Source: Candidatus Saccharimonadota bacterium
Lineage (GTDB): Bacteria > Patescibacteriota > Microgenomatia > UBA1406 > GWC2-37-13
NCBI GenBank assembly: GCA_016432445.1
Contig: CP066689.1
Coordinates: 1-32,000, forward strand
DNA: 32,000 bases
Direction of reading: 5' to 3'
The notes beneath the pieces were generated by a model. It saw only the letters and a list, made by a program, of their open reading frames with translations, did no database searches and had not been told where the DNA came from. Position 1 is the first letter of the stretch, and the number at the start of each line of letters is the position of its first letter. Both the position numbers and the translations under genes were made by a program. This document shows positions 5,124-31,913 of the stretch, in pieces.

Positions 5124-7898
5124 ATGAAAAAAACTACTCCTAAAAACCGCCATGTTCTTTTTATTGTCTTTTCTATTATCTTTATCGCTTCTACTTTTTA
5201 TCTTAACAGCAACAATGTAAAGCCTTACGTTAAAAGTATTGTCCCGAATCTAACCGAAGGTATCATACCTGATGCCTACGGAATAGGCGGATCATTAAAC
5301 ATCACCCAAACCGCAGGCACCTTTAACCCTACAACGCTCTCAGCCACCGGAAATATCACTACTTCAGGAGGCAACGTCGGCATCGGGACGGCCAACCCCC
5401 TCGGATCTTTACATGTTGGCAGCAGTGCCTTATTTGTCTCATCAACCAATGGCAATGTCGGGATCGGCACCACTGCTCCTGGAGCTTCGCTTCATATAAA
5501 TAATAGCGGTGGAATGTGGGTAGGCGCCTCAAGTAAACGCGTCTCAATTTTTACAAGTGGAGCAGGAGAAGATATTTCCTCTTCTAATACCTTGCACCTA
5601 AATTATAATAATGATAAAAGTGTTTCCATTGGCGAAGGTGGGACAAGTAATTTATATACCTCTGGCAACGTCGGCATCGGGACAGCTAATCCTGGGGCAA
5701 AGCTAGAATTAGGAAGTGGACAAATATTTGTTCCTACAGGTTCATCTACAGCGCCTAGTTATTCCTTCACTGGCGACTCTAATACTGGTATTTTTAGCCC
5801 AACAGGCGGAGGTGTTTCAATTGCCAGTGATGGCACAGAAACCTTTAGATTCCACAATGACGCTCTTAATTTGAAAGTTACTCAGGGTATAAGCTGGGTA
5901 GATTTACCAAGCGGCGGCGGGTATCTCTCATTAGTTTGGGGCGGTAATTATATTTTAGACCAAAGAGCTTCAACTAATGCTAACGCCTATAGAATATATA
6001 ACACTTATACGGATGGTTCAAATTATGAACGGGCGGAATTAAATTGGCAAGCCAACTCCAATGTTTTTACTATCCAAACCGCAGCAGGAGGCACAGGCAC
6101 AGTCAGGAATATTGCTTTAATGGGTGGCAATGTTGGCATCGGGACAACCTCTCCGACAACAATTTTAGGACAAAGTGGCAGCACTATGAATGCGAAAGCG
6201 ATGATTTCCGGTCCTGGAGGAGTGAGCACGCCAATTTTACAATTAACCGAAAATTCTGCTTATTCTTCCGGAACAGATAAATCGGCAGGAATATATTTTG
6301 GAGCAATGGATTCTGCAAGCAGTGTGCAAGCCTCATCCTCAATATTAGGTATTTCAAACTTTACAGCTTCTCAAGCTGGGACAGGCGCTATTGCTTTTAG
6401 AACTAAAGGTACTCATAATATTGATGACACAGATGTTGAGAGAATGAGAATTACAAGTACCGGCAATCTTGGCATTGGCACCACTAATCCGGGCGCAAAA
6501 CTTGAACTCACATATAATCCTGCTGCCGCAGCAATGATCGGCTTGGGAATTGGTGCCAGCGCTGGCGGATCAACTACAGGCAACGCCACCATCAATTTAC
6601 AAGCTGATGTTGCTAACGCAGATATTTCCATGGCCAGAAGCGGTCTTACTCATTTTGGAAACAACTTAATTCTAAGAAACAACGGAACTTCTACAAATGC
6701 TGGGATTACTTTTCAAACTAACGGTTCAAACGGACGGATGACCATCACAAATAGCGGCAACGTCGGCATCGGCACCACTAATCCTTATGCATCAGTTTAC
6801 GTTGCCAACTCTGGTTTAACAAAGGGTTACGGCTTAGAGTACGGTATGATTCTTAGCAGCGCCGATGATAGAGGAATTCAACTAAGAAGTAATTATGATC
6901 CTCGCGATGATGGCCTCGTAGACTCAAGTTATGGTTCATGGGTAATAGGTATGCTTGGAAGAATGGGCACGGGATCAACAACCCCAATGTTAGGTTTTTG
7001 GTGGTCACCTCCCAATACTGAACCCGTTGCGAACGGCGCTAAATATTATTTTAAAAGCGATGGCAATGGCCAAGCCGCTAGTTCATGGACAAGCGGTTTA
7101 GGTGACTTGGCAGAAATTTATAAAGTCACCGGATCATACGAAAAAGGAGACTTGGTCGTATCTGATAAATCAACTCCTAATGCTATGATAAAAAGCGCTG
7201 GCAAGCCTTATGATCCAGACATCATGGGTATCATCTCTGCTGCTCCCGGTTTAGTCATCGGAGCTGGCAATTTAGATGATCCAAACCAAGGAGAACCGAT
7301 TGCCCTTACCGGAAAAGTATCAACTAAAGCTTCTTTGGAAAACGGAGCCATTAATATCGGTGATCCTCTTACTTCTTCTTCAACTCCCGGTACAGTCATG
7401 AAAGCCACAAAATATGGGAAAATTATAGGAAGAGCTTTGGAGTTTTTTGACGGCAGTGTTAAGGTAAGTAAAGGTACAATTGATATTTTAAACCAAAAAG
7501 CTAAGGCAGAGGATAAACCCAAAATTCCTTATGAGGAAACAAAAGCTCCCAACACGTATAATCATGGAAAAATTTTGGTTTTCGTTGATGTTTCCTTGTA
7601 TGACCCTGATCTCTACCTTACCTCAACCGGAGACCTTAAACTCTTAAGCTCTAATCCCTCTAATCCTTCTTCTTCCTCCTACTCCCTCTCTGACAAAAAC
7701 GGTATTATTGACCGGATAGGAGCGTTTGCTCAAATCGTCGTCGCTAAACTCCAGGCCGGCATTATAGAAACAAAAAAACTGATTGTCAGTGGAGTTGATA
7801 TACTGGAAAAACTCAATGATTTGTCCAAAAAAGTTGATCAACAGCAAAAAGAAATCCAGATTTTAAAACAAGAAATTAACTCTCTCAAAGCAAACTAA
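5124..7898 (+). CDS. GNVGIGT-repeat surface protein, paralog of the upstream giant gene
   Basis: 924-aa ORF with an N-terminal signal-anchor (VLFIVFSIIFIASTFYL) and six GNVGIGT motifs. Shares the blocks GGNVGIGTANPLGSLHVG (29 nt identical at DNA level) and ERMRITSTGN(V/L)GIGTTNP with gene 1. Coiled-coil-like C-terminus (QQQKEIQILKQEINSLK). Confidence 0.85.
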   Translation: MKKTTPKNRHVLFIVFSIIFIASTFYLNSNNVKPYVKSIVPNLTEGIIPDAYGIGGSLNITQTAGTFNPTTLSATGNITTSGGNVGIGTANPLGSLHVGSSALFVSSTNGNVGIGTTAPGASLHINNSGGMWVGASSKRVSIFTSGAGEDISSSNTLHLNYNNDKSVSIGEGGTSNLYTSGNVGIGTANPGAKLELGSGQIFVPTGSSTAPSYSFTGDSNTGIFSPTGGGVSIASDGTETFRFHNDALNLKVTQGISWVDLPSGGGYLSLVWGGNYILDQRASTNANAYRIYNTYTDGSNYERAELNWQANSNVFTIQTAAGGTGTVRNIALMGGNVGIGTTSPTTILGQSGSTMNAKAMISGPGGVSTPILQLTENSAYSSGTDKSAGIYFGAMDSASSVQASSSILGISNFTASQAGTGAIAFRTKGTHNIDDTDVERMRITSTGNLGIGTTNPGAKLELTYNPAAAAMIGLGIGASAGGSTTGNATINLQADVANADISMARSGLTHFGNNLILRNNGTSTNAGITFQTNGSNGRMTITNSGNVGIGTTNPYASVYVANSGLTKGYGLEYGMILSSADDRGIQLRSNYDPRDDGLVDSSYGSWVIGMLGRMGTGSTTPMLGFWWSPPNTEPVANGAKYYFKSDGNGQAASSWTSGLGDLAEIYKVTGSYEKGDLVVSDKSTPNAMIKSAGKPYDPDIMGIISAAPGLVIGAGNLDDPNQGEPIALTGKVSTKASLENGAINIGDPLTSSSTPGTVMKATKYGKIIGRALEFFDGSVKVSKGTIDILNQKAKAEDKPKIPYEETKAPNTYNHGKILVFVDVSLYDPDLYLTSTGDLKLLSSNPSNPSSSSYSLSDKNGIIDRIGAFAQIVVAKLQAGIIETKKLIVSGVDILEKLNDLSKKVDQQQKEIQILKQEINSLKAN

Positions 7899-13316: not shown

Positions 13317-14402
13317 TTAAGAACTCATCTCCAGCCATTTCTCAATCTCAAGTGCCGCGGCCGCTCCCATGCCTGCGGCAGTTATAGCCTGACTGTAAAT
13401 ATGATCAACACAATCACCGGCCGCAAAAACACCTTCAACCGAAGTCATTGAAGGTGAGTGGAAATTAAATTTTTTAATCCCGTCGGTATCATGGGTAAGA
13501 ACATTTTCTTTCGAAGACCTTGCCTGCCGGCAGGCAGGTCTAAGATCTAAGATCGATGATCCAATTTTTTTTGCCATCTCCTCTGCCTTTTTAGCGGCTG
13601 TCACAATATAGCCATGTTCATCAAGTACGGGCGTATTGCCATACGCCCCTACATTAAGAAAATCCGTATCCGGTTTGTGACCAATGGCAATAAATAAGCC
13701 ATCAAGCTTTAGCTCTTTTTCTCCTTCTGCAGTAACTAACCTTACCCCTTCAACCTTTTTCTCCCCTATGACATCAGCCACCACCGCATTGTAAATAATC
13801 TCAATCTTAGGATTAGCCGTGACTCTTTCCTGCATAATCTTTGAAGCTTTAAATTTATCTCTTCGGTGAATAAGATAAACTTTGGCAGCAAACTTTGTCA
13901 AGGTTAGCGCCTCCTCCATAGCCGCATCCCCGCCGCCAACAACTCCTACAGTTTTTCCTTTGAAAAAAAATCCGTCGCAGGTCGCACAGGCCGAGATACC
14001 GTATCCACGAAGTCTTGTCTCTGCTTCCAAACCCAACCACATGGCTCTGGCGCCGGTAGCAATTAATATTGATTTGGCTAAGATCTTAGATCTAAGATCT
14101 TGGATCTGAGAAGGATATATTTCAAACGGCCTTTTGGAAAAATCAACCTTAACTATATTCTCATTTACAATTCTTGTTCCTAATTTTTCCGCCTGACTTC
14201 TCATTTTCTCAACCAATTCAGGTCCTGGAATCCGTTCAAAACCCGCATAATTTTCAACATCCGAAGTAAGCATCAGCTGACCGCCTGGAGGAGAACCGGC
14301 AAACAAAAGAGGATCAAGATTGGCCCGGGCAGTATAAATAGCCGCTGAAAGTCCGGCCGGCCCCCCACCTATTATTACAACATCCTCAATTTTGTTTGTC
14401 AT
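13317..14402 (-). CDS. trxB: thioredoxin-disulfide reductase
   Basis: VVIIGGGPAGLSAAIY (FAD), CATC redox centre in ISACATCDGFFF, GGGDAAMEEA (NADPH), HRRDKFKAS, GVFAAGDCVDHIYSQAITAAGMG. The ATG at 14402 (MTNKIED) is preferred over the track TTG at 14414, which lies in the repeat. Contains two repeat-derived inserts. Confidence 0.9.
   Translation of the reverse strand: MTNKIEDVVIIGGGPAGLSAAIYTARANLDPLLFAGSPPGGQLMLTSDVENYAGFERIPGPELVEKMRSQAEKLGTRIVNENIVKVDFSKRPFEIYPSQIQDLRSKILAKSILIATGARAMWLGLEAETRLRGYGISACATCDGFFFKGKTVGVVGGGDAAMEEALTLTKFAAKVYLIHRRDKFKASKIMQERVTANPKIEIIYNAVVADVIGEKKVEGVRLVTAEGEKELKLDGLFIAIGHKPDTDFLNVGAYGNTPVLDEHGYIVTAAKKAEEMAKKIGSSILDLRPACRQARSSKENVLTHDTDGIKKFNFHSPSMTSVEGVFAAGDCVDHIYSQAITAAGMGAAAALEIEKWLEMSS
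13517..13562. repeat. 25-nt palindrome plus family C units, in-frame in trxB
   Basis: gaccttgcctgcc|ggcaggcaggtc (1-nt bulge) followed by taagatctaagatcgatga. Encodes SSILDLRPACRQARSS within a ~40-aa segment absent from E. coli TrxB. Confidence 0.8.
14079..14110. repeat. family C heptamer array in-frame in trxB
   Basis: taagatc ttagatc taagatc ttggatc tgag, which on the coding strand gives QIQDLRSKILA. Confidence 0.85.
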
Positions 14403-16100: not shown

Positions 16101-16136
16101 ATTATTTAAAATTTTTAATACGTAAATTACAAGAAA

Positions 16137-16223
16137 AAATCCAAATGTCAAAATCCAAATATCAAATTAATCCAAAATCCAAAACCTTTATCATTTGACA
16201 TTTGAGCTTTGTCATTTGGATTT
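16137..16223. repeat. family A heptamer hairpin array
   Basis: aaatccaaatgtcaaaatccaaatatcaaat ... tcatttgacatttgagctttgtcatttggattt. Confidence 0.8.
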
Positions 16224-16921: not shown

Positions 16922-16935
16922 TGAAACGGATGAAT

Positions 16936-16941
16936 TATAAT
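16936..16941 (+). promoter_or_regulatory. -10 box (TATAAT) 6 nt upstream of the fmt ATG
   Basis: tataat tactct ATG(16948). Confidence 0.4.
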
Positions 16942-16947
16942 TACTCT

Positions 16948-17961
16948 ATGAAGAAACTGAAAATTGCTTATTTTGGAACGCCTTATTTCTCAGCTGATTT
17001 TCTTGAAAAAATTTTAACTGACAATGAACTGCCAGTTGAAGTTAAGTTTATCATCACTCAGCCTGACCAACCCGCTGGTAGAAAACAAACTCTTACCCCT
17101 ACACCTGTTAAAGAAATGGCAAAAAAATATGGAATTGATGTTTATGGGCATTTGGCAGGTGGCGCGAATTTAGGGATCCCATCAGCGCGCAGGTTTAAAC
17201 GAGCACTGATGGGAAAAAATGAGCGACAGAATCTGCCAAATGCATTGAAAAATATTGACATCGCTCTCCTTTACGCTTACGGAAAAATCATTCCCTCCAA
17301 TCTTCTAACTATTCCTAAACTGGGATTTTGGAACATCCATCCCTCGCTTTTGCCTAAATATCGCGGCCCTTCGCCCATGGCTACCCCTTTAATTTTAGGA
17401 GATAAAGAAACAGGAGTTACCTTAATCAAGATGGATGAACAAATGGATCATGGACCAATTATCGCTCAGGAAAAGTATGAGATAAAACCTGATGACAGGC
17501 GCCCGGATCTGGAAAAAAAATTAACAGATTTGGGATATGAAATATTTAAAAAAACAATCATTAATTGTAGGCACAGGTCGCGACCTGTCCCTACCCGCGA
17601 ACAAGACCACATCCACGCCACCTACACTCACCTTCTTAACAAAAACGATGGCTTCATTCCTTTTGAAATTCTAAACTCGATCATCAATAATCGATCTTCG
17701 AAAGTCGAAAGTCGAATATCTAAAATCAAAGATCAAAGATCTAAGATCTACAACCTTTTCCGCGGTCTCTATCCCTGGCCAGGCATCTGGACAAAAGTCA
17801 ATATTAACGGCCAGGAAAAACGGTTAAAGATTACAGACATGGAATGTAGGGACAACCCTAGGGTTGTCCCTAGTTGTGAATTAATCATCAAAAAAGTCCA
17901 ACTCGAAGACAAAAAAGAAGTCGATTTTAAAATCTTCCAAAAAGCCTATTTATTGTTTTAA
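16948..17961 (+). CDS. fmt: methionyl-tRNA formyltransferase
   Basis: MKKLKIAYFGTPYFS..., ITQPDQPAGRK, FWNIHPSLLPKYRGPSPM, TGVTLIKMDEQMDHGPII. The ATG at 16948 is preferred over the track start at 16930. Four repeat-derived in-frame inserts. Confidence 0.85.
   Translation: MKKLKIAYFGTPYFSADFLEKILTDNELPVEVKFIITQPDQPAGRKQTLTPTPVKEMAKKYGIDVYGHLAGGANLGIPSARRFKRALMGKNERQNLPNALKNIDIALLYAYGKIIPSNLLTIPKLGFWNIHPSLLPKYRGPSPMATPLILGDKETGVTLIKMDEQMDHGPIIAQEKYEIKPDDRRPDLEKKLTDLGYEIFKKTIINCRHRSRPVPTREQDHIHATYTHLLNKNDGFIPFEILNSIINNRSSKVESRISKIKDQRSKIYNLFRGLYPWPGIWTKVNINGQEKRLKITDMECRDNPRVVPSCELIIKKVQLEDKKEVDFKIFQKAYLLF
17148..17243 (+). repeat. 96-nt hairpin element, copy 1 (in-frame in fmt, 32 codons)
   Basis: The termini gcatttggcag ... 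ctgccaaatgc form a perfect 11-bp inverted repeat, with an inner stem cccatcag/ctgatggg. 86 of 96 positions are identical to 25722..25817. Encodes HLAGGANLGIPSARRFKRALMGKNERQNLPNA. Confidence 0.9.
17567..17594. repeat. 28-nt near-perfect palindrome in-frame in fmt
   Basis: gtaggcacaggtcg|cgacctgtccctac, with 13 of 14 positions pairing. Encodes CRHRSRPVPT. Confidence 0.85.
17677..17751 (+). repeat. family D/C heptamer array (10-11 units) in-frame in fmt
   Basis: tcgatca tcaataa tcgatct tcgaaag tcgaaag tcgaata tctaaaa tcaaaga tcaaaga tctaaga tctac, encoding SIINNRSSKVESRISKIKDQRSKIY. Confidence 0.9.
17847..17872. repeat. 26-nt perfect palindrome in-frame in fmt
   Basis: tagggacaaccctagggttgtcccta is its own reverse complement. 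Its arms are shared with 17567..17594. Encodes CRDNPRVVPS. Confidence 0.9.
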
Positions 17962-20106: not shown

Positions 20107-21222
20107 AATCTCATTTCTCCTAATTGACTCCCTAACACTCTCCATAAATCTCTTCATTACCCATAAATTATGGTAAGTTGCTAAAGTATAACCCAAAAGT
20201 TCTTTCTGTTTAAACAGATGATAAAGATAAGCTTTAGTAAAGTTTTGGCAAACATAACACTCACAGTTCTCATCCACCCTTTCTAAATTATCTTTATATA
20301 TAGTCTTATTAATATCAATCTTCTCCCATCTTTGAAATTTGAAATTTGAAATTTGGATTTGATAGATAGTCCCCATTCTCGCCAGTCTGGTGGGTTCAAC
20401 ACAGTCAAAAGTATCAATACCATAGCCCACCAAATCTAAAATGTCATCAGCATGCCCCACTCCCAAAAGATGCACGGGTTTATCTTCAGGCAAATACTCT
20501 GAAACCCAGGAAACCTGCTGTCTCATCTCCTCTTTTGTCTCCCCCACTGACACACCACCTATTGCCACACCATCAGTGTTTTGAGAAACAACAAATTTAG
20601 CTGACTCCTTTCTCAAATTCTCATATTTCCCTCCCTGAATGATCCCATAAAGGAATTGAAATTTTTGATTTTTGATATTCGATATTCGAAAATCGATTGT
20701 CGAAGATCGAATGCACCTTTTTAGCCATTCATGCGTTCTCTCCATTGACTTTTTTGCATAAACGTGATCAGCTCCGCAGTCTAAACACTCATCAAAAGCC
20801 ATGATTAAATCCGCCCCAATCTTTTTCTGATACTCAATTGATTTTTCAGGAGTAAACTCAACCAAAGTGCCATCATAAGTTGACCTGAACTTGACTCCAT
20901 CTTCGGAAATTTTTTCCACCAATGGTTCTTCTTCCCCAAAAACCTTAGCTTTACGCTTGCCGGTAGCTAAAGAAAAAACCTGAAATCCGCCTGAATCAGA
21001 CATTAAAGGAACTTCAAGTTTAGAAAATCCATGAATGCCGCCGGCTTTTTCAATAATTTCAACTCCCGGATGAGTAACTAAATGGTAGCAGTTAACAAAA
21101 GCTACCTTAACCCCGACCTCTTTAACTTGTTTGGGAGTTAAAGACTTTAAAGTTCCTTTTGTAGCCACAGGCACAAAAGCCGGAGTTTCAATCTCACCAT
21201 GAAAAGTTGCAATTTTGCCCAA
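20104..21222 (-). CDS. tgt: tRNA-guanine transglycosylase (queuine tRNA-ribosyltransferase)
   Basis: HGEIETPAFVPVATKGTLK, MSDSGGFQVFSL, IMAFDEC, YGIIQGG, AIGGVSVGE, LLGVGH, FDCVEPTRLAR, CECYVCQNFTKAYLYHL (zinc site). The first canonical start is TTG at 21222, but homology continues upstream to about 21270 (see findings). Two heptamer inserts. Confidence 0.9.
   Translation of the reverse strand: MGKIATFHGEIETPAFVPVATKGTLKSLTPKQVKEVGVKVAFVNCYHLVTHPGVEIIEKAGGIHGFSKLEVPLMSDSGGFQVFSLATGKRKAKVFGEEEPLVEKISEDGVKFRSTYDGTLVEFTPEKSIEYQKKIGADLIMAFDECLDCGADHVYAKKSMERTHEWLKRCIRSSTIDFRISNIKNQKFQFLYGIIQGGKYENLRKESAKFVVSQNTDGVAIGGVSVGETKEEMRQQVSWVSEYLPEDKPVHLLGVGHADDILDLVGYGIDTFDCVEPTRLARMGTIYQIQISNFKFQRWEKIDINKTIYKDNLERVDENCECYVCQNFTKAYLYHLFKQKELLGYTLATYHNLWVMKRFMESVRESIRRNEI
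20331..20363. repeat. heptamer array (TTTGAAA units) in-frame in tgt
   Basis: tttgaaa tttgaaa tttgaaa tttggat ttgat, which on the coding strand gives QIQISNFKFQR. Confidence 0.85.
20655..20710. repeat. family D heptamer array (8 units) in-frame in tgt
   Basis: The coding strand tcgatcttcgacaatcgattttcgaatatcgaatatcaaaaatcaaaaatttcaat encodes RSSTIDFRISNIKNQKFQ. A 19-nt stretch is identical to the glycosyltransferase copy. Confidence 0.9.
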
Positions 21223-21269: not shown

Positions 21270-21821
21270 CTATTTTTCCAAATCTACAAACTTATACGTA
21301 TATTTTCCCGACTTGCCCTTTTTCTCAAAGACTTTTTTCTTAAACTCGCAGTAATCTGGGAAAAAGGTGTCAGCCTTATATTTCCCTTCAACTATGGTTA
21401 GATAAAGTTTATCTGTGTACTTCATTGCTTCATTGTAAATTTGACCCCCGCCAATTATAAAGATCTCTTTTTTATCGGGAAGCCTTTCTTTTGCAACTTT
21501 AATAGCATCCTCTAATGAATTACAAACAATAGTATGACCATGGCGAAGATATCCGTTTTGAAGTGTCGCTTGGGTTCTCCCGAAGGGTGAAGCGCACGAA
21601 AAACGAGGTATCGAGCCACTTCGAGTAACAATAATGTTTAAGCGATTTGGTAATGGCCTTCCAATAGATTCGTATGTCTTTCTCCCCATCACAACCGCAT
21701 GGCCTTTGGTTATTTTTCTGAATCTTTCCAAATCCTCAGGAATATCCCACAAAAGCTTATTATCCTTCCCTAAAGCCCTATGTTCATCAATAATGGCAAT
21801 CATGCTAATCTTTGGTTTCAT
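21270..21821 (-). CDS. folA: dihydrofolate reductase
   Basis: ISMIAIIDEHRALGKDNKLLW, VVMGRKTYESIGRPLPNRLNIIVTR, IFIIGGGQIYNE, LYLTIVEG...DTFFP. The ATG at 21821 (MKPKIS) is preferred, with TATCAT 7 nt upstream. Carries an extra segment of roughly 22 aa relative to E. coli FolA. Confidence 0.85.
   Translation of the reverse strand: MKPKISMIAIIDEHRALGKDNKLLWDIPEDLERFRKITKGHAVVMGRKTYESIGRPLPNRLNIIVTRSGSIPRFSCASPFGRTQATLQNGYLRHGHTIVCNSLEDAIKVAKERLPDKKEIFIIGGGQIYNEAMKYTDKLYLTIVEGKYKADTFFPDYCEFKKKVFEKKGKSGKYTYKFVDLEK
21554..21605. repeat. imperfect palindromic element in-frame in folA
   Basis: cgttttgaagtgtcgctt ... aagcgcacgaaaaacg, with outer stem cgtttt/aaaacg and inner stem gtg(t)cgctt/aagcgcac. 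Encodes part of PRFSCASPFGRTQATLQNG. Confidence 0.55.
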
Positions 21822-22672: not shown

Positions 22673-23652
22673 ACTTTATTCTTACTCTTTTCATAGTATC
22701 CGCCAACAACCGAAAGTTCTCCTTTTATAGGCGGGTGGGGATTGTAATTTTCAAGTATAACGTGCTCAGGCCTGAAATCATCAATATCTTTAACTGAAGA
22801 GTCAATCTTAATTGTAGGAAAAGACCTTGGCTCTCTTTTTATCTGCTCTTTTACTTGGGTCAAATGATTTTCATAAATATGAACATCGCCAAAAGTATGA
22901 ACAAACTCTCCAGGCTCATAACCTGTAACTTTCGCAATGATAAAAGTAAGCAAAGCGTAACTGGCAATATTAAAAGGAACACCTAAGAAAACATCAGCAC
23001 TGCGCTGATAAAGCTGAAGATTCAATTTGCCTTTTTTCATATTGATTTGGTACATATTGTGACAGATTGGGAAGTAAGAAGTATCCTCAGGTTGAGCCAT
23101 GGTGTATAAATACTCAGGGTTCCATGAATTAACAATAGTATTGTGAGCATAAGGATCCTCTTTTATCTCATTGACCACCCATAATAACTGATCTATTGTT
23201 CTTGCGGGCTTGCCTCGCCGAAGCCCAGCGTAGGCGGGCCATTTTCTCCACATCTCGCCATAAATTCTAGGAAGTTCTCCATGTTTTCTAGCAAACTTAT
23301 CATCCGTCTTTATCTTTTCAATAAACTCCTCTTTATCTAAGATCTTAGATCTTAGATCTTGGATCTTAGATTTGTAAATTTTATAAGGGTAATCGTCCCA
23401 AATGTGAACATTATTATCAACTAGATATTTAATGTTAGTTTGGCCGGACATAAACCAATAAAGTTCATGTAAAACTCCTTTCCAGTAAACACGCTTTGTT
23501 GTTAAAAGAGGCAGTCCTTTAGATAAATCAAAACGGATCTGACGGCCAAAAACTCCATAGGAGTAAACATCGGCTCCCCGGTCATGGTTTTTATCACCGT
23601 TTTTCAAAATATCCTTAAGTAGATTTAGATATTGGTATTCTGGATGATCCAT
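22669..23652 (-). CDS. thyA: thymidylate synthase (ThyA)
   Basis: RFDLSKGLPLLTTKRV, HELYWFMSGQTN, IVNSWNP, catalytic Cys in FPICHNMYQ, LYQRSADVFLGVPFNIASYALL, FGDVHIYENH. The ATG at 23652 (MDHPEYQYL) is preferred. Two repeat-derived inserts. Confidence 0.92.
   Translation of the reverse strand: MDHPEYQYLNLLKDILKNGDKNHDRGADVYSYGVFGRQIRFDLSKGLPLLTTKRVYWKGVLHELYWFMSGQTNIKYLVDNNVHIWDDYPYKIYKSKIQDLRSKILDKEEFIEKIKTDDKFARKHGELPRIYGEMWRKWPAYAGLRRGKPARTIDQLLWVVNEIKEDPYAHNTIVNSWNPEYLYTMAQPEDTSYFPICHNMYQINMKKGKLNLQLYQRSADVFLGVPFNIASYALLTFIIAKVTGYEPGEFVHTFGDVHIYENHLTQVKEQIKREPRSFPTIKIDSSVKDIDDFRPEHVILENYNPHPPIKGELSVVGGYYEKSKNKV
23211..23240. repeat. 30-nt GC-rich element in-frame in thyA, second copy at 16771..16800
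   Basis: tgcctcgccgaagcccagcgtaggcgggcc versus tgcctcgccgaagcctagcgaaggcgggtc (27 of 30 identical). Read on opposite strands in the two genes: PAYAGLRRGK versus SASPKPSEGGS. Confidence 0.85.
23335..23373. repeat. family C heptamer array in-frame in thyA
   Basis: atctaag atcttag atcttag atcttgg atcttag attt, which on the coding strand gives KSKIQDLRSKILD. Confidence 0.9.
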
Positions 23653-25089: not shown

Positions 25090-26238
25090 ATGACCCCCGT
25101 TTACGTTTTTGATCCAACGGCTAGTGACCTTTTAAGCCGAGTCCGCGGCATCGGCCGCTATCTCCAACTCCTTAAAGAAAACTTTAGCAACGAATTCATT
25201 TTCTCAGATAAACTACCCTCAACTCACAACTCACAACCCATAACCTTCATCAACCCTTTCTTTGACCCTCTTAAAACACCCTTACTGATGAAAAGAATCG
25301 CGCAAAAACAAATTGCCGTCATCCATGACCTTATTCCCCTTAAATATCCTTTTCATTTTCCTGTTGGCATTCGGGGAAAATTGAATATATTTCTAAATAA
25401 ACTAGCTCTCAAAAATTATGATTTAATCATCACCGATTCGCAAACCAGTAAAAAAGATATCGTTAATATTTTAAAAGTGAAAAGTGAAAAGTTAAAAGTT
25501 ATCTACCCCACTCTCACTGGCATTTTTTTTGATAGTCGATCTTCGACAATCGATCTTCGAACATCAAATATCGAAAATCGAAAATCTAAGATCAAAGATC
25601 TAAGATCAAACTATCTTATTTACGTAGGGGACGCCACCTGGAATAAAAATCTGGTAAATCTTACGAAAGCAATTAAATTCGCCAATGTCACCTGCATTTT
25701 CGTCGGAAAAATATTTACAAATTATTTGACAGGTGGCGCGAATTTAGGGATCCCGTCAGCGCGCAGTTTTGGACGAGCACTGATGGGAAAAAATGAGCGA
25801 CAGAATCTGTCAAATAACCAACTCGACCATCCCTGGCAAAAAGACCTTAAAGAATTTCTAGAAATCACTCAAAACGACAAGCACTTTATTTTCCCAGGAT
25901 TTGTTAAAGATGAGGAATTAATCTCACTTTACAAAAATGCCGTTGCTAACATTCTTGTTTCCCGCGACGAAGGCTTTGGCTTCTCTTACTTTGAAGCTGC
26001 TTCCCAAGGGACCCCTTCAATTTTAAGCGATATTTCAATATTTCACGAAACTGCCGCTGATGCAGCTTTATTTGCCGATCCCAATAACCCTCAAGATATT
26101 GCCGATAAGATCAATGAACTTTTTACTAATAAGGAATTTGCCCAAAAACTGGGAAATAAGGCCAAACACCGAACTCTAAGCTTTTCTCCAAAAAAATTTA
26201 AGGAAGATTTATTGAAGATAATAAATGATAACTGGTAA
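25090..26238 (+). CDS. glycosyltransferase family 1 (GT4-type)
   Basis: The C-terminal half has the GT1 E-x7-E region (VSRDEGFGFSYFEAASQGTPSI) and LYKNAVANILVS. Carries a family E half-array, a TKAAAAG array, a D/C array and the 96-nt element, all in-frame. Confidence 0.85.
   Translation: MTPVYVFDPTASDLLSRVRGIGRYLQLLKENFSNEFIFSDKLPSTHNSQPITFINPFFDPLKTPLLMKRIAQKQIAVIHDLIPLKYPFHFPVGIRGKLNIFLNKLALKNYDLIITDSQTSKKDIVNILKVKSEKLKVIYPTLTGIFFDSRSSTIDLRTSNIENRKSKIKDLRSNYLIYVGDATWNKNLVNLTKAIKFANVTCIFVGKIFTNYLTGGANLGIPSARSFGRALMGKNERQNLSNNQLDHPWQKDLKEFLEITQNDKHFIFPGFVKDEELISLYKNAVANILVSRDEGFGFSYFEAASQGTPSILSDISIFHETAADAALFADPNNPQDIADKINELFTNKEFAQKLGNKAKHRTLSFSPKKFKEDLLKIINDNW
25218..25245 (+). repeat. 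family E half-array (C-rich arm only) in-frame in the GT gene
   Basis: ctcaactcacaactcacaacccataacc, encoding STHNSQPIT. Confidence 0.75.
25471..25498 (+). repeat. four tandem 7-nt units TKAAAAG in-frame
   Basis: ttaaaag tgaaaag tgaaaag ttaaaag, encoding LKVKSEKLKV. May be partly native sequence. Confidence 0.6.
25536..25610 (+). repeat. family D/C heptamer array (10-11 units) in-frame in the GT gene
   Basis: tcgatct tcgacaa tcgatct tcgaaca tcaaata tcgaaaa tcgaaaa tctaaga tcaaaga tctaaga tcaaa. Same unit order as the fmt array. Encodes SRSSTIDLRTSNIENRKSKIKDLRSN. Confidence 0.9.
25722..25817 (+). repeat. 96-nt hairpin element, copy 2 (in-frame in the GT gene)
   Basis: The termini ttatttgacag ... 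ctgtcaaataa form a perfect 11-bp inverted repeat. Encodes YLTGGANLGIPSARSFGRALMGKNERQNLSNN. Confidence 0.9.
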
Positions 26239-28011: not shown

Positions 28012-28812
28012 ACTATTTTCTACAGTAATTTTAGTTAATTTATCAAAATCAACTTTAATAATATCGGCTATAAATTTTCCAATCAATAATAAATTTGAAG
28101 GAGTGTTAGGATATTTTTTTTGAGTTCTTAAAGGTTCAGGCAGTAAAAATGGCGCATCAGTTTCTAAAACTAACTGATCTAAAGGAATTTTTTTAATAAA
28201 ACTTTGTTTTTCTTTTGAGTAAGTAATGTCACCGTCAACGCCAATGTAAATTTTGTGTTCCACTGCAAACTTTAAAAGCTCGCCATCAGGTTCACAGCAA
28301 TGAAAAACTGTTTTACCTTCTAACTTAGGATCCCATTTCTCCTTTAAAATTTTAAGCACATCTTCTTTAGCCTCACGGTTATGAATGATTAAACTTTTAT
28401 CATATTTTATGGCTAAATCTAACTGCTTTTTAAATAACTCTTTTTGCAGATCAATAAATTTTTCATCAACTTCATAATCCGAATACTTCGTCTTGCCGTA
28501 TGAATGCCTGTCTATTCCCACTTCGCCCACCGCCACCACCCTATCATTTTTTAATGATTGCTCTAATTCTTCTAAATTAATTTGAAATTTAAAATTTGAA
28601 ATTTGAAATTCATAGATGTGATGCGGATGTATGCCTACGGCTGCATAAACTCCTTCATGTTCGCCGGCTATCTCCACGGCTTTTCTTGAAGAAACAATGT
28701 CTGTCCCCGGGATAAGAATATAATCCACACCCGACGTTTTAGCTTGTATTAAAACTTCATCAATCTTGTTTTTGAAAGCATCAAAATTTAAATGGCAGTG
28801 AGTATCAAACAT
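27958..28812 (-). CDS. tatD: TatD-family metal-dependent DNase/hydrolase
   Basis: MFDTHCHLNF, GIHPHH, VAVGEVGIDRH, LIIHNREA, FHCC and LETDAPFL motifs. The 3' end overlaps the convergent upstream gene by 54 nt. One heptamer insert. Confidence 0.88.
   Translation of the reverse strand: MFDTHCHLNFDAFKNKIDEVLIQAKTSGVDYILIPGTDIVSSRKAVEIAGEHEGVYAAVGIHPHHIYEFQISNFKFQINLEELEQSLKNDRVVAVGEVGIDRHSYGKTKYSDYEVDEKFIDLQKELFKKQLDLAIKYDKSLIIHNREAKEDVLKILKEKWDPKLEGKTVFHCCEPDGELLKFAVEHKIYIGVDGDITYSKEKQSFIKKIPLDQLVLETDAPFLLPEPLRTQKKYPNTPSNLLLIGKFIADIIKVDFDKLTKITVENSLRLFNLDFNHVKGGIFA
28579..28611. repeat. heptamer array (AATTTGA units) in-frame in tatD
   Basis: aatttga aatttaa aatttga aatttga aattc, which on the coding strand gives EFQISNFKFQIN. 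The peptide core is the same as in tgt. Confidence 0.85.
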
Positions 28813-29725: not shown

Positions 29726-29767
29726 AAGATTAATGTAAATTATCTTTCCCCGGATGTCAAGTAATAT

Positions 29768-29840
29768 GAGATCTTAGATGTTAGATCTTTGATCTTAGAA
29801 AGAATAATATCTAAGATCTGAGATCTCAGATCCGAGATCT
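29768..29840. repeat. family C heptamer hairpin element
   Basis: Left arm gagatcttagatgttagatctttgatcttaga (32 nt, identical to 30314-30345), right arm tctaagatctgagatctcagatccgagatct. Confidence 0.9.
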
Positions 29841-29872: not shown

Positions 29873-30310
29873 ATGACCATCTTCATCGGTACCGACCACC
29901 GTGGATTTGAGCTTAAAAATAAACTACTGGATTATCTTCAGGATAAAAATATCCGGGTTGAGGACATGGGTAATTATGAGTACGATGCCGAAGACGATAA
30001 CCCAGATTATGCCAAAAAAGTAGCTCAAGCTGTTCTTCAGAATCCTTCAGAGTTTTTAGGCATTGTTATCTGCGGATCAGGAATAGGAGTCAGTATGGCC
30101 GCTAACCGCTTTAAAGGCATCCGCTGTGCTTTAGGTTTTGATATTTCACAAGTTAAACACGGCCGGGAGAATGATCATATTAATGTTCTGGCCATACCTG
30201 CAGAGTATACAGATTTTGAGACTGCCACTCAAATGATAGACACGTTTATCCAAACTCCAATTATCAAAAAAGAAAAATATTTAAGAAGATCAAGAAAGCT
30301 AGATGAATAA
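29873..30310 (+). CDS. rpiB: ribose-5-phosphate isomerase B (RpiB/LacA/LacB family)
   Basis: MTIFIGTDHRGFELK, VICGSGIGVSMAANRFKGIRCA and NVLAIPAEY. ATG 29873 is preferred over the track TTG at 29840, which lies inside the repeat/promoter. Confidence 0.9.
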   Translation: MTIFIGTDHRGFELKNKLLDYLQDKNIRVEDMGNYEYDAEDDNPDYAKKVAQAVLQNPSEFLGIVICGSGIGVSMAANRFKGIRCALGFDISQVKHGRENDHINVLAIPAEYTDFETATQMIDTFIQTPIIKKEKYLRRSRKLDE

Positions 30311-30313
30311 AAT

Positions 30314-30398
30314 GAGATCTTAGATGTTAGATCTTTGATCTTAGATCAAATTACAAAAATATATAATATCGAATATCCAAGATCTAAGATCTCAGATC
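30314..30398. repeat. family C heptamer hairpin element between convergent rpiB and dprA
   Basis: Left arm gagatcttagatgttagatctttgatcttagatc, right arm atcgaatatccaagatctaagatctcagatc. T-rich tract after the stem on the minus strand (dprA side). Confidence 0.9.
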
Positions 30399-31485
30399 AA
30401 AAATCTCTTAACTGGAACTTCCCCTCTTCATTTCTGTCAATTATTTTTTTCACTTCCATAATTGACAACAATGGCAGTAAGTTATGAATTTGAGTTTTAC
30501 ATTCCAAAGCTAGATCATCAGCATTAAGCGGCTGAAAACTTAAACAGTCATATATTTTTTTCTCATCTGCAGTTAAGGTAAGATTAACTTCTTTTTTTGA
30601 AGGCGCCGCTTTAAGATTAAACTCATTTAAGATATCCTCAACTGAAGTTGCTAAAACCGCGCCTTGTTTTAGTAGAATATTTGGCGCTTCAGAAAGTTCA
30701 GAGGTTAAAGGCACAGGGGGCGCAAAAACCTCTTTTCCCTGCAAAGCCGCATACTTGGCTGTTATCAAAGCTCCGGATTTATTAGTTCCCTCAACTACTA
30801 AAACTCCCTTAGATAAACCTGAAATTAGTCTGTTCCGGGCAATAAAAAGTCCCGGCAAAACTGTCCTTCCCGGAGGAAATTCGGAGATAACTAATCCATT
30901 CTCTTTAATTATCTGCTCATATAATTTTCTATTACCAGGAGGATAAACAATATCAACGCCACACCCTAAAAAAGCTACCGTTTTTCCATGGCAGTTTAAA
31001 GCTGATTGATGAGCGATCGTATCAATTCCTTGCGCCAAACCCGACACAATGGTGGCCCCGGTTTCGGCAAGCTTAAGAGAAAACATTTTGGTTATTTGCT
31101 GACCATAAGGACTGGGTTTTCTTGTTCCAACAACTGCAAAATAAAATCCCTCATCAAAATTATATTTTTTAATATCTCCCTTAACATAAAGGCATATTGG
31201 CGGATCTGGGATATTAATGATGGATGAAGGATAAAAAGAATCTTCTTGAGTAATAATCATTATCTCTTTTTCTACAATTTCCTGGTATTTTTTTTGAGCA
31301 TCAAACTTATTTTTAAAATCAATAAAATCTGCGGCTGTTTTTTCTCCAATTAATGGTTTTATTTCGGAAAAAGAAGCTTCATAGGCTTGTTTTACATCAC
31401 CAAAAGTATCTAATAATTTTCTAAATTTCATCGGCCCAATCCCTAAGAAATGGGAAAAGGCGAGGTAATAATAAATATTCTTCAT
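30397..31485 (-). CDS. dprA: DNA-processing protein DprA (Smf)
   Basis: AVVGTRKPSPYG, VSGLAQGIDTIAHQSAL, VAFLGCGVDIVYP, FIARNRLISGLS and GALITAKYAALQGKEVFA. ATG 31485 (MKNIYYY) is preferred over the repeat-encoded track start at 31500. Confidence 0.9.
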   Translation of the reverse strand: MKNIYYYLAFSHFLGIGPMKFRKLLDTFGDVKQAYEASFSEIKPLIGEKTAADFIDFKNKFDAQKKYQEIVEKEIMIITQEDSFYPSSIINIPDPPICLYVKGDIKKYNFDEGFYFAVVGTRKPSPYGQQITKMFSLKLAETGATIVSGLAQGIDTIAHQSALNCHGKTVAFLGCGVDIVYPPGNRKLYEQIIKENGLVISEFPPGRTVLPGLFIARNRLISGLSKGVLVVEGTNKSGALITAKYAALQGKEVFAPPVPLTSELSEAPNILLKQGAVLATSVEDILNEFNLKAAPSKKEVNLTLTADEKKIYDCLSFQPLNADDLALECKTQIHNLLPLLSIMEVKKIIDRNEEGKFQLRDF

Positions 31486-31517: not shown

Positions 31518-31890
31518 ACTTACAACTTCTAATAATGGAGGAAAATATTAAGGATAATTCATGAGCCTCTTGAGAAAATTTTCTACACTGAATTCCCAAA
31601 TCAGGGCGAGCTATTAATAACATACGTACCCAATAAACAGATTCTTTTGCCTCTTTCTTGCATAACCCAATTTTGTGAATAAAATCTTTTTTTGATTCAG
31701 CACCATCGGCTTCCGCATAATTAGCGCCTATACTAGTAGCCGATCTTACAAGCTGGCTTTTTATTGGTGTAATTATAGGGTTATCAGATAACCTCATTAA
31801 GAATGTGATAACCTCTTCACCATATTTTGCAGTTCTCTCTATTAAATCGTATTTTCTTTGTAAATTTGGATTTTGGATTTGATTTGGCAT
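31516..31890 (-). CDS. four-helix-bundle protein (23S rRNA intervening-sequence protein family)
   Basis: YDLIERTAKYGEEVITFL, QLVRSATSIGANYAEADGAESKKDFIHKIGLCKKEAKESVYWVRML. The start codon and the first ~10 residues (MPNQIQNPNLQ) are encoded by the family A array. Confidence 0.85.
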   Translation of the reverse strand: MPNQIQNPNLQRKYDLIERTAKYGEEVITFLMRLSDNPIITPIKSQLVRSATSIGANYAEADGAESKKDFIHKIGLCKKEAKESVYWVRMLLIARPDLGIQCRKFSQEAHELSLIFSSIIRSCK

Positions 31891-31913
31891 TTGACATTTG
31901 AAATTTGGATTTT
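31861..31913. repeat. family A heptamer array, complementary orientation
   Basis: taaatttggattttggatttgatttggcatttgacatttgaaatttggatttt. Confidence 0.85.

What the first reader, a model, noticed from the sequence alone, without database searches (positions are those of the whole stretch)
17148..17243. 96-nt element inserted in-frame in two unrelated enzymes, with compensatory changes preserving its terminal stem
fmt (17148-17243) and the glycosyltransferase (25722-25817) each contain a 96-nt segment (exactly 32 codons). By my base-by-base comparison 86 of 96 positions are identical. Each copy ends in a perfect 11-bp inverted repeat: gcatttggcag/ctgccaaatgc in fmt and ttatttgacag/ctgtcaaataa in the GT gene. 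Six of the ten differences are three paired compensatory substitutions in that stem (positions 1/96, 2/95 and 8/89). One further difference converts an inner-stem pair (cccatcag/ctgatggg) into a G-T (G-U) pair. The remaining three lie in a loop. An additional gcgcg/cgcgc pairing interleaves with the inner stem, giving pseudoknot-like topology. Covariation of this kind argues that a folded nucleic acid is under selection, and because G-U is tolerated on the sense strand, probably an RNA. Yet the element is embedded in, and apparently translated with, two essential-type genes, giving HLAGGANLGIPSARRFKRALMGKNERQNLPNA and YLTGGANLGIPSARSFGRALMGKNERQNLSNN. Candidate explanations are a MITE-like mobile hairpin, a cis-regulatory RNA structure inside the CDS, or something excised. 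I cannot tell which from sequence alone.
Basis: seen in the sequence. Interest (0 to 1): 0.84.

Follow-up and report, generated by a model that had tools for sequence, protein, structure and literature searches.

The report
In-frame hairpin repeat in Roizmanbacteria genes
The 96-base segment shared by the two enzyme genes belongs to a previously undescribed family of small hairpin-forming repeats that have spread through the tiny genomes of Roizmanbacteria and survive inside essential genes because they keep the reading frame open, much as the palindromic elements of Rickettsia do.

Summary
Two 96-nt copies (17148-17243 in fmt, 25722-25817 in a GT4 glycosyltransferase) are 86/96 identical, in the same frame, and fold into a long hairpin. 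The window comes from a Candidatus Roizmanbacteria MAG.

Box-pattern scans and a covariance model found 32 distinct relatives in Roizmanbacteria/Patescibacteria contigs. Sense copies lie in Fmt, GT4, transketolase (two sites), MiaB, a Zn-ADH and TatD. Antisense copies lie in Tgt, CysS, a PMT_2 protein and MiaB. Others are intergenic.

All copies share the boxes YAGGTGGCGCGA and GCGACAGAATCTR and four helices with strong covariation (85% paired against 31-47% in shifted controls). The outer ~9-bp stem is site-specific: kept between orthologous copies, different between paralogous ones.

Core length is a multiple of three in 14 of 15 CDS copies and in 0 of 5 intergenic copies. Syntenic GT orthologues lack the segment. 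AlphaFold models normal Fmt with the element peptide as a low-confidence loop.

Best reading: a selfish, non-autonomous hairpin repeat that works like a Rickettsia palindromic element, translated and tolerated in permissive loops. Excision and a cis-regulatory mRNA role are disfavoured. The mobilising enzyme and the origin of the arms are unknown. I found no description of it.

The parts
17148..17243 (+). Element copy 1 (96 nt, 32 codons) inside fmt. It encodes HLAGGANLGIPSARRFKRALMGKNERQNLPNA.
   Evidence: CM R1 scores it 107.9 bits.
17148..17156 (+). Copy 1, 5' outer arm GCATTTGGC. It pairs with 17235-17243.
17157..17234 (+). Copy 1 core (78 nt). The 5' box AGGTGGCGCGA is at 17157-17167. The inner helix pairs 17177-17185 with 17206-17214. 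The 3' box GCGACAGAATCT is at 17223-17234.
17235..17243 (+). Copy 1, 3' outer arm GCCAAATGC.
25722..25817 (+). Element copy 2 (96 nt, 32 codons) inside the GT4 glycosyltransferase gene. It encodes YLTGGANLGIPSARSFGRALMGKNERQNLSNN. The arms are TTATTTGAC (25722-25730) and GTCAAATAA (25809-25817). The core is 25731-25808.
   Evidence: CM R1 scores it 103.2 bits. Syntenic orthologues lack it.
16930..17961 (+). Host gene 1: methionyl-tRNA formyltransferase. The database protein P0001 starts at 16948. The element sits in the hypervariable linker between 'KYGIDVYG' and 'LKNIDIALLYAYG'.
25090..26238 (+). Host gene 2: family-4 glycosyltransferase (Glycos_transf_1).

Best explanation
The segment is one member of a dispersed family of small hairpin-forming repeats in Roizmanbacteria (CPR/Patescibacteria). 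Elements are about 93-115 nt long, and 96 nt in this window. The family is non-autonomous and behaves as selfish DNA.

**Anatomy.** Each element has a 75-95-nt core bounded by two conserved but asymmetric boxes, 5'-YAGGTGGCGCGA and GCGACAGAATCTR-3'. The core folds into nested helices. An outer stem of 2-11 bp, typically 9 bp, closes it, and the sequence of that stem is specific to each insertion site.

**What is shown.**
- Copies occur in many unrelated genes, in both orientations, and between genes.
- Copies inside genes keep an open frame and have a length that is a multiple of three.
- Orthologues without the insert exist.
- The encoded peptide is not conserved as protein: frames and orientations differ between copies.
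- Fmt is predicted to fold normally around the insert.

**What is inferred.**
- The element spreads as a folded single strand, ssDNA or RNA, recognised by an enzyme encoded elsewhere. This would explain why structure and unpaired boxes are conserved on the element's own strand regardless of host-gene direction.
- Insertions that break a frame or hit a structured part of a protein are purged. Survivors therefore pile up in permissive surface loops, such as the Fmt linker, and are translated as a passenger loop.
- The outer stem is set at each insertion. Most likely one arm is native target sequence and the other an inverted copy of it, or the element enters the centre of a pre-existing short palindrome.
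For: **Family and dispersal.**
- The box pattern found 8 genuine loci among 15 hits in genome contigs and 23 among 51 in metagenome contigs.
- CM R1 scores family members at 40-108 bits, and degenerate members at 23-27 bits. Chance pattern hits in high-GC genomes score 17 bits or less.
- Hosts were verified by Pfam or by locus gene tables. They are Fmt, GT4, transketolase at two sites, MiaB, Zn-ADH and TatD in sense, and Tgt, CysS, PMT_2 and MiaB in antisense.

**It is an insertion.**
- Syntenic GT orthologues at 62% and 59% identity lack 29 residues at the site.
- The minimal Fmt linker is 29-30 aa against 58 aa here. Fmt proteins carrying the element are scattered in the Fmt tree among ones with short or heptamer-derived linkers.

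**It is translated rather than excised.**
- Core length is a multiple of 3 in 14 of 15 CDS copies and in 0 of 5 intergenic copies.
- The frame read differs between copies, as in L008 and L012.
- AlphaFold gives Fmt a mean pLDDT of 89 and pTM of 0.87. The residue blocks that hold most of the element peptide score only 49-52.

**Structure.**
- P1 is 90.7% paired against 34-42% in slid controls on a structure-blind MAFFT alignment.
- The whole structure is 85% paired against 31-47% in controls. 25 of 31 pairs show double-sided changes.

**The outer arm is site-specific**.

**Other points.**
- Element GC is 47-51% against 38% for the window.
- Pfam found no transposase or reverse-transcriptase domain in the ten window ORFs scanned.
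Against: - No mobilising enzyme, autonomous parent element, target-site duplication or polymorphic empty site was found. Mobility is therefore inferred from distribution only.
- The source genome, a 1.1-Mb contig, could not be read outside the window. Its copy number is unknown, and the window holds only two copies.
- Conserved unpaired boxes together with covariation in every helix are also what a functional RNA would show.
- Many copies lie at the same Fmt site. Some of these are vertical inheritance, not independent insertions.
- There is no transcript or peptide evidence that the insert is actually translated.
Confidence: 0.72

Rival explanations
1. It is a functional cis-acting structured RNA embedded in mRNAs, for example a binding or processing site that controls the stability or translation of the host messages. 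On this reading the structure is maintained by selection on the transcript.
For: Covariation is seen in all helices, and the unpaired boxes are nearly invariant. There is a modest excess of G.U over A.C on the box-bearing strand. Where the neighbouring gene could be read, type II copies lie just 3' of it in sense orientation.
Against: At least four independent CDS sites carry the element antisense to the host gene: Tgt, CysS, PMT_2 and MiaB in L054. MiaB orthologues carry it in opposite orientations at the same site. The hosts share no pathway. No Rfam family matches. The G.U bias follows the element strand, not the mRNA strand.
Confidence: 0.1
2. It is removed before the protein is made, as a small intron-like sequence cut out of the RNA or as a stretch that the ribosome bypasses.
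For: The terminal stem brings the two flanks together, as an excision or bypass signal would. The host genes are essential-type enzymes.
Against: Every CDS copy is stop-free in the host frame. Core length is a multiple of 3 in 14 of 15 CDS copies against 0 of 5 intergenic copies, a filter that excision would make unnecessary. At 96 nt it is far below group I or group II intron size, and no ribozyme family matches. There is no stop codon or matched take-off and landing codons as in T4 gene 60 (from the sequence and my own knowledge).
Confidence: 0.03
3. The hairpin is a host-beneficial DNA-level signal, for example a cruciform or protein-binding site used in replication, recombination or DNA uptake, rather than a selfish mobile element.
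For: Both orientations are allowed. The structure is conserved and the boxes are conserved. Copies recur at the same sites in orthologous genes (Fmt, Tgt, MiaB).
Against: Density is low and irregular, with about 4-5 additional copies in roughly 250 kb of non-redundant neighbouring DNA. There is no positional regularity. The asymmetric boxes and the G.U bias point to one strand rather than to duplex DNA. Related genomes have different repeat families at the same permissive loops.
Confidence: 0.1
4. It is an ordinary shared protein module or a product of gene conversion between the two genes, not an element.
For: Both copies are read in the same frame and give similar peptides.
Against: Similarity stops exactly at the stem ends. 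Orthologues lack the segment. Relatives are read in other frames and on the other strand. The peptide has no protein homologues in 5.8 billion sequences or 1.84 billion representatives.
Confidence: 0.02

Closest known systems
Rickettsia palindromic elements (RPE; Ogata et al. 2000, as summarised in PMC10969869 and PMC1779305)
   Same: Both are interspersed palindromic repeats of about 100 bp found in intergenic and protein-coding regions. Both insert in frame into unrelated housekeeping genes of a small-genome, host-dependent bacterium. Both proliferate in a lineage-specific way. Both include an old insert kept at one site across the clade (PheT in Rickettsia, the Fmt linker here). In both cases the mobilising enzyme is unknown.
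   Different: The phylum is different (Patescibacteria) and no sequence relationship is expected. This family has asymmetric conserved boxes and a site-specific outer stem. Copies are read in several frames and in both orientations, so there is no conserved element peptide. It coexists with heptamer tandem repeats and several other in-frame repeat families.
Bacterial MITEs with intragenic copies (ERIC, BOX, Correia, QMITE1, Anabaena MITEs; review PMC10969869)
   Same: Both are short, non-autonomous, hairpin-forming and dispersed, and both occasionally make in-frame fusions.
   Different: Classical MITEs have terminal inverted repeats that are constant across copies, direct target-site duplications, and a parent IS. 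Here the terminal inverted repeat changes with every site. The constant subterminal boxes are not inverted copies of each other. Type I copies have no direct duplication.
Small dispersed repeats (SDR) of Nostocaceae (Elhai et al. 2008, Genome Res 18:1484; cited from my own knowledge and from PMC5861425, as the paper was not readable here)
   Same: Both are very small dispersed elements with a shared secondary structure supported by compensatory changes. Both are associated with heptamer tandem repeats. SDR5 inserts within a palindrome (HIP1). Nested insertions occur in both.
   Different: SDRs are 21-27 nt, occur in cyanobacteria, and are mostly non-coding. The present core is 75-95 nt and is often inside genes.
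IS200/IS605-type single-strand transposition and its miniature derivatives (PATEs), and REP/RAYT (own knowledge; REP review PMC3733652)
   Same: Both show strand-specific recognition of imperfect hairpins. Neither has terminal inverted repeats in the classical sense. Neither makes target duplications. Both can occur in either orientation in the genome.
   Different: No Y1 transposase or RAYT was seen near any copy. REPs are 20-40 nt and extragenic. IS200/IS605 elements insert next to a fixed tetra- or pentanucleotide, which is not seen here.

Membership tests
Rickettsia palindromic elements (RPE) | Interspersed repeats of about 100-150 bp present in both intergenic and coding regions. | tested here: met
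   32 distinct copies of 93-149 nt were found in CDS and intergenic DNA.
Rickettsia palindromic elements (RPE) | Palindromic, folding into a stable hairpin. | tested here: met
   Fold z-score is about -6. 85% of cells are paired, with covariation.
Rickettsia palindromic elements (RPE) | In-frame insertion into unrelated genes, with orthologues lacking the insert. | tested here: met
Rickettsia palindromic elements (RPE) | Sequence similarity to the RPE-1 to RPE-10 consensus, and occurrence in Rickettsiales. | tested here: not met
   The host is Candidatus Roizmanbacteria. No RPE consensus was at hand for a direct sequence comparison, so only the taxon criterion was tested. It works like an RPE but is not a member.
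Rickettsia palindromic elements (RPE) | Each family encodes a conserved peptide in one frame. | tested here: not met
   Frames and orientation vary between copies.
Classical MITE | Terminal inverted repeats that are constant across copies. | tested here: not met
   The outer arms differ in every site. The constant boxes AGGTGGCGCGA and GCGACAGAATCT are not reverse complements of each other.
Classical MITE | Direct target-site duplications that differ from site to site. | tested here: not met
   Type I copies have no consistent direct repeats. Type II copies carry the same GGAAC on both sides in all copies.
Classical MITE | A parent insertion sequence with matching ends and a transposase. | not tested
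   Neither the locus gene tables nor the flanking ORFs I scanned with Pfam show a transposase.
REP / BIME | 20-40-nt extragenic palindromes with a GTAG or CGTC tag, associated with a RAYT. | tested here: not met
   The element is 96 nt and frequently intragenic. No such tag is seen at the conserved ends.
Curated structured RNA family (Rfam 15) | Match to a family covariance model at the gathering score. | tested here: not met
   There were no hits in the window or in 10 related loci. Only noise hits with E above 0.5 appeared under the permissive threshold.
Cis-regulatory mRNA element | Fixed orientation relative to the transcript, and association with a functional class of genes. | tested here: not met
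   Sense and antisense CDS copies both exist, in unrelated hosts. MiaB carries it in both orientations.
Intron, translational bypass or other excised insert | The insert need not preserve the frame, and carries a catalytic or recoding signature. | tested here: not met
   Frame and length filtering is seen in CDS copies only. There is no ribozyme match. Actual RNA or protein products cannot be tested with these tools.

The most novel reading that the evidence does not exclude
The element is mobilised by a mechanism not yet described. A folded single strand, possibly an RNA copied back into DNA, enters the target and rebuilds its closing stem from the target sequence at each insertion, or it homes to the centre of short palindromes in either orientation. 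This would explain three observations: the site-specific complementary arms, the extra ~9-12 nt beyond the core at filled sites, and the opposite orientation of 92%-identical cores at the same MiaB codon. If so, it would be a new kind of target-templated hairpin transposition operating in CPR bacteria. Together with the heptamer and other in-frame repeats, it would be a major and overlooked shaper of their proteomes.
Probability: 0.2. Interest if true: 0.85.

Novelty: new variant of a known kind. Interest (0 to 1): 0.62.

Why it matters
CPR/Patescibacteria have some of the smallest and most streamlined bacterial genomes. Here, essential enzymes (Fmt, Tgt, CysS, MiaB, transketolase, ThyA, TrxB) carry in-frame selfish repeats of several families at the same permissive loops.

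- This second example, in a phylum far from Rickettsia, suggests that in-frame colonisation of housekeeping genes may be a wider feature of small-genome, host-dependent bacteria.
- It explains the length heterogeneity of CPR orthologues: Fmt ranges from 281 to 431 aa among the listed homologues.
- It warns against reading such inserts as lineage-specific domains.
- It offers a well-defined RNA/DNA structure (conserved boxes plus a programmable outer stem) whose mobilising enzyme is unknown and could be a new recombinase or retro-element activity.

Tried and rejected
**Searches that led nowhere**

The two copies concatenated gave no hit.
- The full HMMER scan of 1.84 billion representatives, using the forward and reverse peptides, returned only two weak hits. 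Both proved to be unrelated tandem-repeat ORFs.
- An exact 19-mer from the 5' half gave zero hits in genome contigs and in metagenome contigs. The source genome is either absent from both collections or the window region is masked in them.
- I could not reach the rest of the 1.1-Mb source contig through exact-protein look-ups. Only a 2.6-kb Logan contig came back.
- Rfam was negative at the gathering threshold and at a permissive threshold.
- RNAalifold on a plain MAFFT alignment of all 19 copies recovered only the outer stem. The inner helices needed a subfamily alignment and a covariance model.
- The Elhai 2008 SDR paper could not be read.
- Literature searches for CPR or Roizmanbacteria intragenic repeats found nothing relevant.

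**Ideas considered and rejected**

- Pseudoknot GCGCG/CGCGC: no covariation.
- Direct target-site duplications: the 5-nt direct repeats I saw by eye, GCATT around copy 1 and CAAAT around copy 2, lie in different registers and are probably chance.
- Diversity-generating retroelement template/variable repeat: the differences are not adenine-specific.
- tRNA-like, attC or hammerhead resemblance: checked by eye only, and Rfam gave no support.
Full report
**1.

Window 17148-17243 and 25722-25817 are two 96-nt segments that differ at ten positions: 1, 2, 8, 34, 46, 50, 51, 89, 95 and 96. No third copy is found in the window by BLAST, by pattern search, or by a covariance model built later.

- Both copies fold into one long hairpin, at -43.6 and -38.5 kcal/mol. 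The z-score is about -6 against dinucleotide shuffles, and the reverse strands fold similarly.
- Six of the differences are three paired changes in the terminal stem. One makes a G.U pair in the inner stem. Three lie in the apical loop.
- Both copies lie in the same frame of two ORFs that Pfam assigns to methionyl-tRNA formyltransferase and to a family-4 glycosyltransferase.
- Only one frame per strand is open.
- Element GC is 47-51% against 38% for the window.

**2. Organism, and proof that the segment is an insertion**

The Fmt protein is 100% identical to a GenBank protein from a Candidatus Roizmanbacteria MAG on a 1.10-Mb contig. The next-best homologue is 57% identical.

- I aligned 120 Fmt homologues. 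The element lies in a hypervariable linker whose minimal length is 29-30 residues, against 58 here.
- PDB Fmt sequences also align around the segment.
- Two syntenic loci from related genomes, L002 and L003, encode GT orthologues at 62% and 59% identity that lack the segment. The gap is 29 residues.
- AlphaFold2 with 56 homologues models the Fmt confidently, with mean pLDDT 89 and pTM 0.87. Only three stretches score low:
  - the blocks covering most of the element-encoded peptide, residues 71-90 of P0001 (pLDDT 49-52);
  - a heptamer-repeat-encoded peptide (56);
  - a 7-residue private insert (73).

**3. It is a family**

About 17 of the 120 Fmt homologues carry element-like peptides at the same site, for example DAIGGAKRGAPSSAQPKRALERAIEQQNLLHD. 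The DNA of four of them showed that the conservation is in nucleotides:

- a 5' box, YAGGTGGCGCGA;
- a 3' box, GCGACAGAATCTR;
- an outer stem around them that is different in each sequence but still complementary.

Scanning the public collections for AGGTGGCGCGA-N45-75-ACAGAATCT gave 15 loci in genome contigs and 51 in metagenome contigs. Of these, 8 and 23 come from low-GC contigs (31-43%). Those with record titles are named Roizmanbacteria or Patescibacteria, or carry an 'uncultured Gammaproteobacteria' label that I doubt. All 31 have the family architecture. The other 35 are chance hits in high-GC genomes.

A covariance model, R1, separates the two groups. Most family members score 40-108 bits, and a few degenerate ones 23-27 bits. 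Chance hits score 17 bits or less. The model also found copies that the exact pattern had missed, at L027:5200-5301, L004:12886-12987, L003:12657-12776 and L003:20849-21003.

**4. Where the copies sit**

Hosts were verified by Pfam or by the locus gene tables.

| Position | Hosts |
|---|---|
| Sense in CDS | Fmt linker (several genomes), GT4 (this window), transketolase at two different sites (L008, L040), MiaB-like radical-SAM enzyme (L059), Zn-dependent dehydrogenase (L070), TatD (L003) |
| Antisense in CDS | Tgt (L003, L004, L027), CysS (L064), a PMT_2 membrane glycosyltransferase (L010), MiaB (L054) |
| Intergenic or 5' of a gene | L012, L016, L031 (checked against flanking ORFs); L044 and L052 have no long spanning ORF |

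A second subfamily, type II, has the same boxes flanked by a constant direct repeat GGAAC. It comprises L006, L007, L019, L021, L039, L053, L069 and L071. These copies are intergenic. Where the neighbouring gene could be read, they lie just 3' of it in sense orientation. Their neighbours are unrelated genes, and none is a transposase.

**5. Translated, not excised**

- In CDS copies the host frame is always open.
- The frame in which the element is read is not constant. In L008 the 3' half is read in another frame, in L012 the 5' half is, and antisense copies are read as ...DSVAQQP....
- Core length is a multiple of three in 14 of 15 CDS copies (75, 78, 87, 90 or 93 nt). In the fifteenth, L008, the 8-nt arms restore the frame. 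Core length is a multiple of three in 0 of 5 intergenic copies (77, 79, 82, 88 and 95 nt).

An excised sequence would not need this length filter. The peptide has no protein homologues, so selection is not on the peptide.

**6. Structure**

On a structure-blind MAFFT alignment of 19 copies, the 13-bp outer helix is 90.7% paired against 34-42% when the partner is slid. Nine of its 13 pairs show double-sided changes.

On the model-fitted alignment of 32 distinct copies, all four helices covary:

| Measure | Structure | Controls |
|---|---|---|
| Cells paired | 85% | 31-47% (slid) |
| Pairs with double-sided changes | 25 of 31 | - |
| Covariation score | 0.47 | 0.06-0.12 (slid) |
| Shuffles reaching the observed score | 0 of 500 | - |

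The caveat is that this alignment was fitted to the structure.

- In diverged copies even the conserved AGGU/AUCU base of the stem changes in a compensatory way, as in GGGU/ACCC in L004.
- G.U exceeds A.C by 46 to 28 once the invariant G.U pair is excluded (p about 0.05). The excess stays on the element's own strand in copies that are antisense to their host gene.

The folded strand is therefore defined by the element, not by the host mRNA. The data do not distinguish RNA from single-stranded DNA.

**7. The outer stem is site-specific**

- Orthologous copies keep their arms while their cores diverge. L002 and L027 both have ATGCAAT. L003, L020 and L023 all have GCGCAAT, yet their apical hairpins differ.
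- Copies at different sites within one genome have similar cores but different arms. Examples are window fmt against GT (core 74/78 identical, arms 6/9), L027a against L027b, and L008 against L020.

So the three 'compensatory' changes in the window mark two different insertion sites, not slow co-evolution.

Length book-keeping against orthologues without the element gives the core plus about 9-12 extra nucleotides:

- GT: +29 residues;
- window Fmt: +28 to +29 residues;
- transketolase L040 against L008: +30 residues.

This fits one arm being native target and the other an inverted copy of it. However, L005 Fmt fits 'both arms native', and arm length ranges from 2 to 11 bp, so this question stays open.

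The window arms (ATTTGAC, ATTTGGC) belong to a heptamer family common in this genome's intergenic hairpin repeats.

Most striking, MiaB orthologues L059 and L054 carry 92%-identical 93-nt cores at the same codon position, between GGC and GCC, in opposite orientations. Either the core flips in place or it homes to this small palindrome in both orientations.

**8. Explanation and rivals**

The best-supported reading (about 0.72) is a selfish, non-autonomous hairpin repeat that spreads as a folded single strand. It survives in genes only where it keeps the frame and lands in a permissive loop. There it is translated as a passenger peptide.

The Fmt linker, a Tgt loop and a TatD loop are such sites. 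In different genomes they hold this element, heptamer-encoded peptides, or other repeat families.

| Rival | Weight | Main objection |
|---|---|---|
| Functional cis-acting RNA | about 0.10 | Both orientations, unrelated hosts |
| Host DNA signal | about 0.10 | Low and irregular density, strand asymmetry |
| Excision or ribosomal bypass | about 0.03 | The length and frame filter |
| Shared protein module | about 0.02 | Already refuted |

What is missing is the enzyme, an empty allele, and any expression data.

**9. Comparison with what is known, and novelty**

The closest analogue in behaviour is the Rickettsia palindromic element: 100-150-bp palindromic repeats in intergenic and coding regions, inserted in frame into many unrelated genes, with one ancient insert kept in PheT across the genus (PMC10969869, PMC1779305).

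This family is not an RPE by taxon. Unlike RPEs it has no conserved element peptide. It is not a classical MITE either, since it lacks constant terminal inverted repeats and variable direct duplications.

The link with heptamer repeats, and the conservation of structure but not sequence, recall the small dispersed repeats of Nostoc (Elhai 2008; cited from my own knowledge and from PMC5861425).

I found no description of such elements in CPR bacteria in the searchable literature. I rate it a new variant of a known kind, with interest 0.62. The phenomenon is known in principle. The phylum, the asymmetric boxes, the site-specific closing stem, the orientation flip, and the sheer load of in-frame repeats in essential genes of a 1.1-Mb genome are new and testable.

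**10. Caveats**

- Only 32 kb of the source genome could be read.
- Related loci were found through the element itself, which biases the sample.
- Several Fmt copies are probably vertical rather than independent insertions.
- The Fmt tree is a quick neighbour-joining tree.
- The inner-helix statistics rest on a model-fitted alignment.

Noticed in passing
window-wide, e.g. 3230-3972, 4868-4907, 14068-14111, 16136-16184, 17686-17748, 20320-20358, 20653-20709, 23332-23373, 25531-25611, 28567-28611, 29762-29840, 30308-30407, 31864-31912: The window is full of 7-nt-period tandem repeats (AGATCTT, ATCGAAA, TTTGACA/TTTGGAT, TGATTCA, CCCACAA and others). They often occur as inverted pairs flanking genes. 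Many lie inside ORFs and are translated in frame: Fmt NNRSSKVESRISKIKDQRSKI, GT DSRSSTIDLRTSNIENRKSKIKDLRSN, TrxB SQIQDLRSKILAKS, ThyA KSKIQDLRSKILDK, Tgt RSSTIDFRISNIKNQKFQF and IQISNFKFQRWEK, TatD EFQISNFKFQINLEE.
   Followed up: partly
window 17566-17601 (fmt), 17854-17874 (fmt), 13479-13559 (trxB, - strand), 23197-23232 (thyA, - strand), 21537-17 region i.e. 21537-21617 (folA, - strand): There are further small GC-rich palindromic inserts inside genes. Examples are ACAGGTCGCGACCTGT in fmt, CCCTAGGG..CCCTAG in fmt (absent from all 119 other Fmt homologues), CCTGCCTGCCGGCAGGCAAGG in trxB, and GGGCTTCGGCGAGGCAAGCCC in thyA. The trxB motif also occurs nested inside the element copy in L003 Tgt.
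   Followed up: partly
L004:12668-14002 (Tgt), Fmt homologues P0098, P0046, P0052, P0115, P0067, P0071, P0095; L040 transketolase: Other in-frame repeat families recur in unrelated Roizmanbacteria proteins. 'KMGMETGQEDRKRKLDKKNPTSNFQLPNSLP' is in Tgt and Fmt. 'SFPRRRES...LDPLLRGDDKK' and 'GRDPVYNHN..DSRLRGNDK' are in Fmt and transketolase. 'SEDTKFFAVCCFPSKNFGIELK' and 'QQNFRRSQLSEQ...VGMRVDL' occupy the Fmt linker.
   Followed up: no
L059:646-762 versus L054:24-140: MiaB orthologues carry 92%-identical 93-nt element cores at the same codon position in opposite orientation, both between GGC and GCC.
   Followed up: partly
L006:1594-1672, L007:1309-1387, L019:7652-7730, L021:567-642, L039:149-224, L053:5166-5241, L069:14353-14428, L071:2164-2241: A type II subfamily has the same conserved boxes but a constant direct repeat GGAAC on both sides. 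These copies are intergenic. Where the adjacent gene could be read, they lie 25-140 nt 3' of it in sense orientation. In three loci a second weak model hit lies immediately adjacent.
   Followed up: partly
L006, L007, L008, L019, L020 (genome contigs records titled 'uncultured Gammaproteobacteria bacterium'): These low-GC contigs (31-36%) carry the Roizmanbacteria-type element. L020 also holds an Fmt-site copy that differs by a single base in its 93-nt core from the one in L003. The 'Gammaproteobacteria' label on these MAGs looks wrong.
   Followed up: no
window 14-4987 and 5124-7898: Two very large ORFs (1657 and 924 aa) contain many copies of a GNVGIGT(T/A)NP-type repeat and have no Pfam match for the second ORF. 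The first also contains long heptamer-repeat stretches at about 3200-4170 and 4800-4910.
   Followed up: no
window 31519-31890 (- strand): A gene for a 23S rRNA intervening-sequence protein (PF05635) lies next to dprA. An identical protein is on a 2.6-kb Logan contig from SRR12113428 that is seen in 10 samples. That run is therefore a source of reads for this organism.
   Followed up: no
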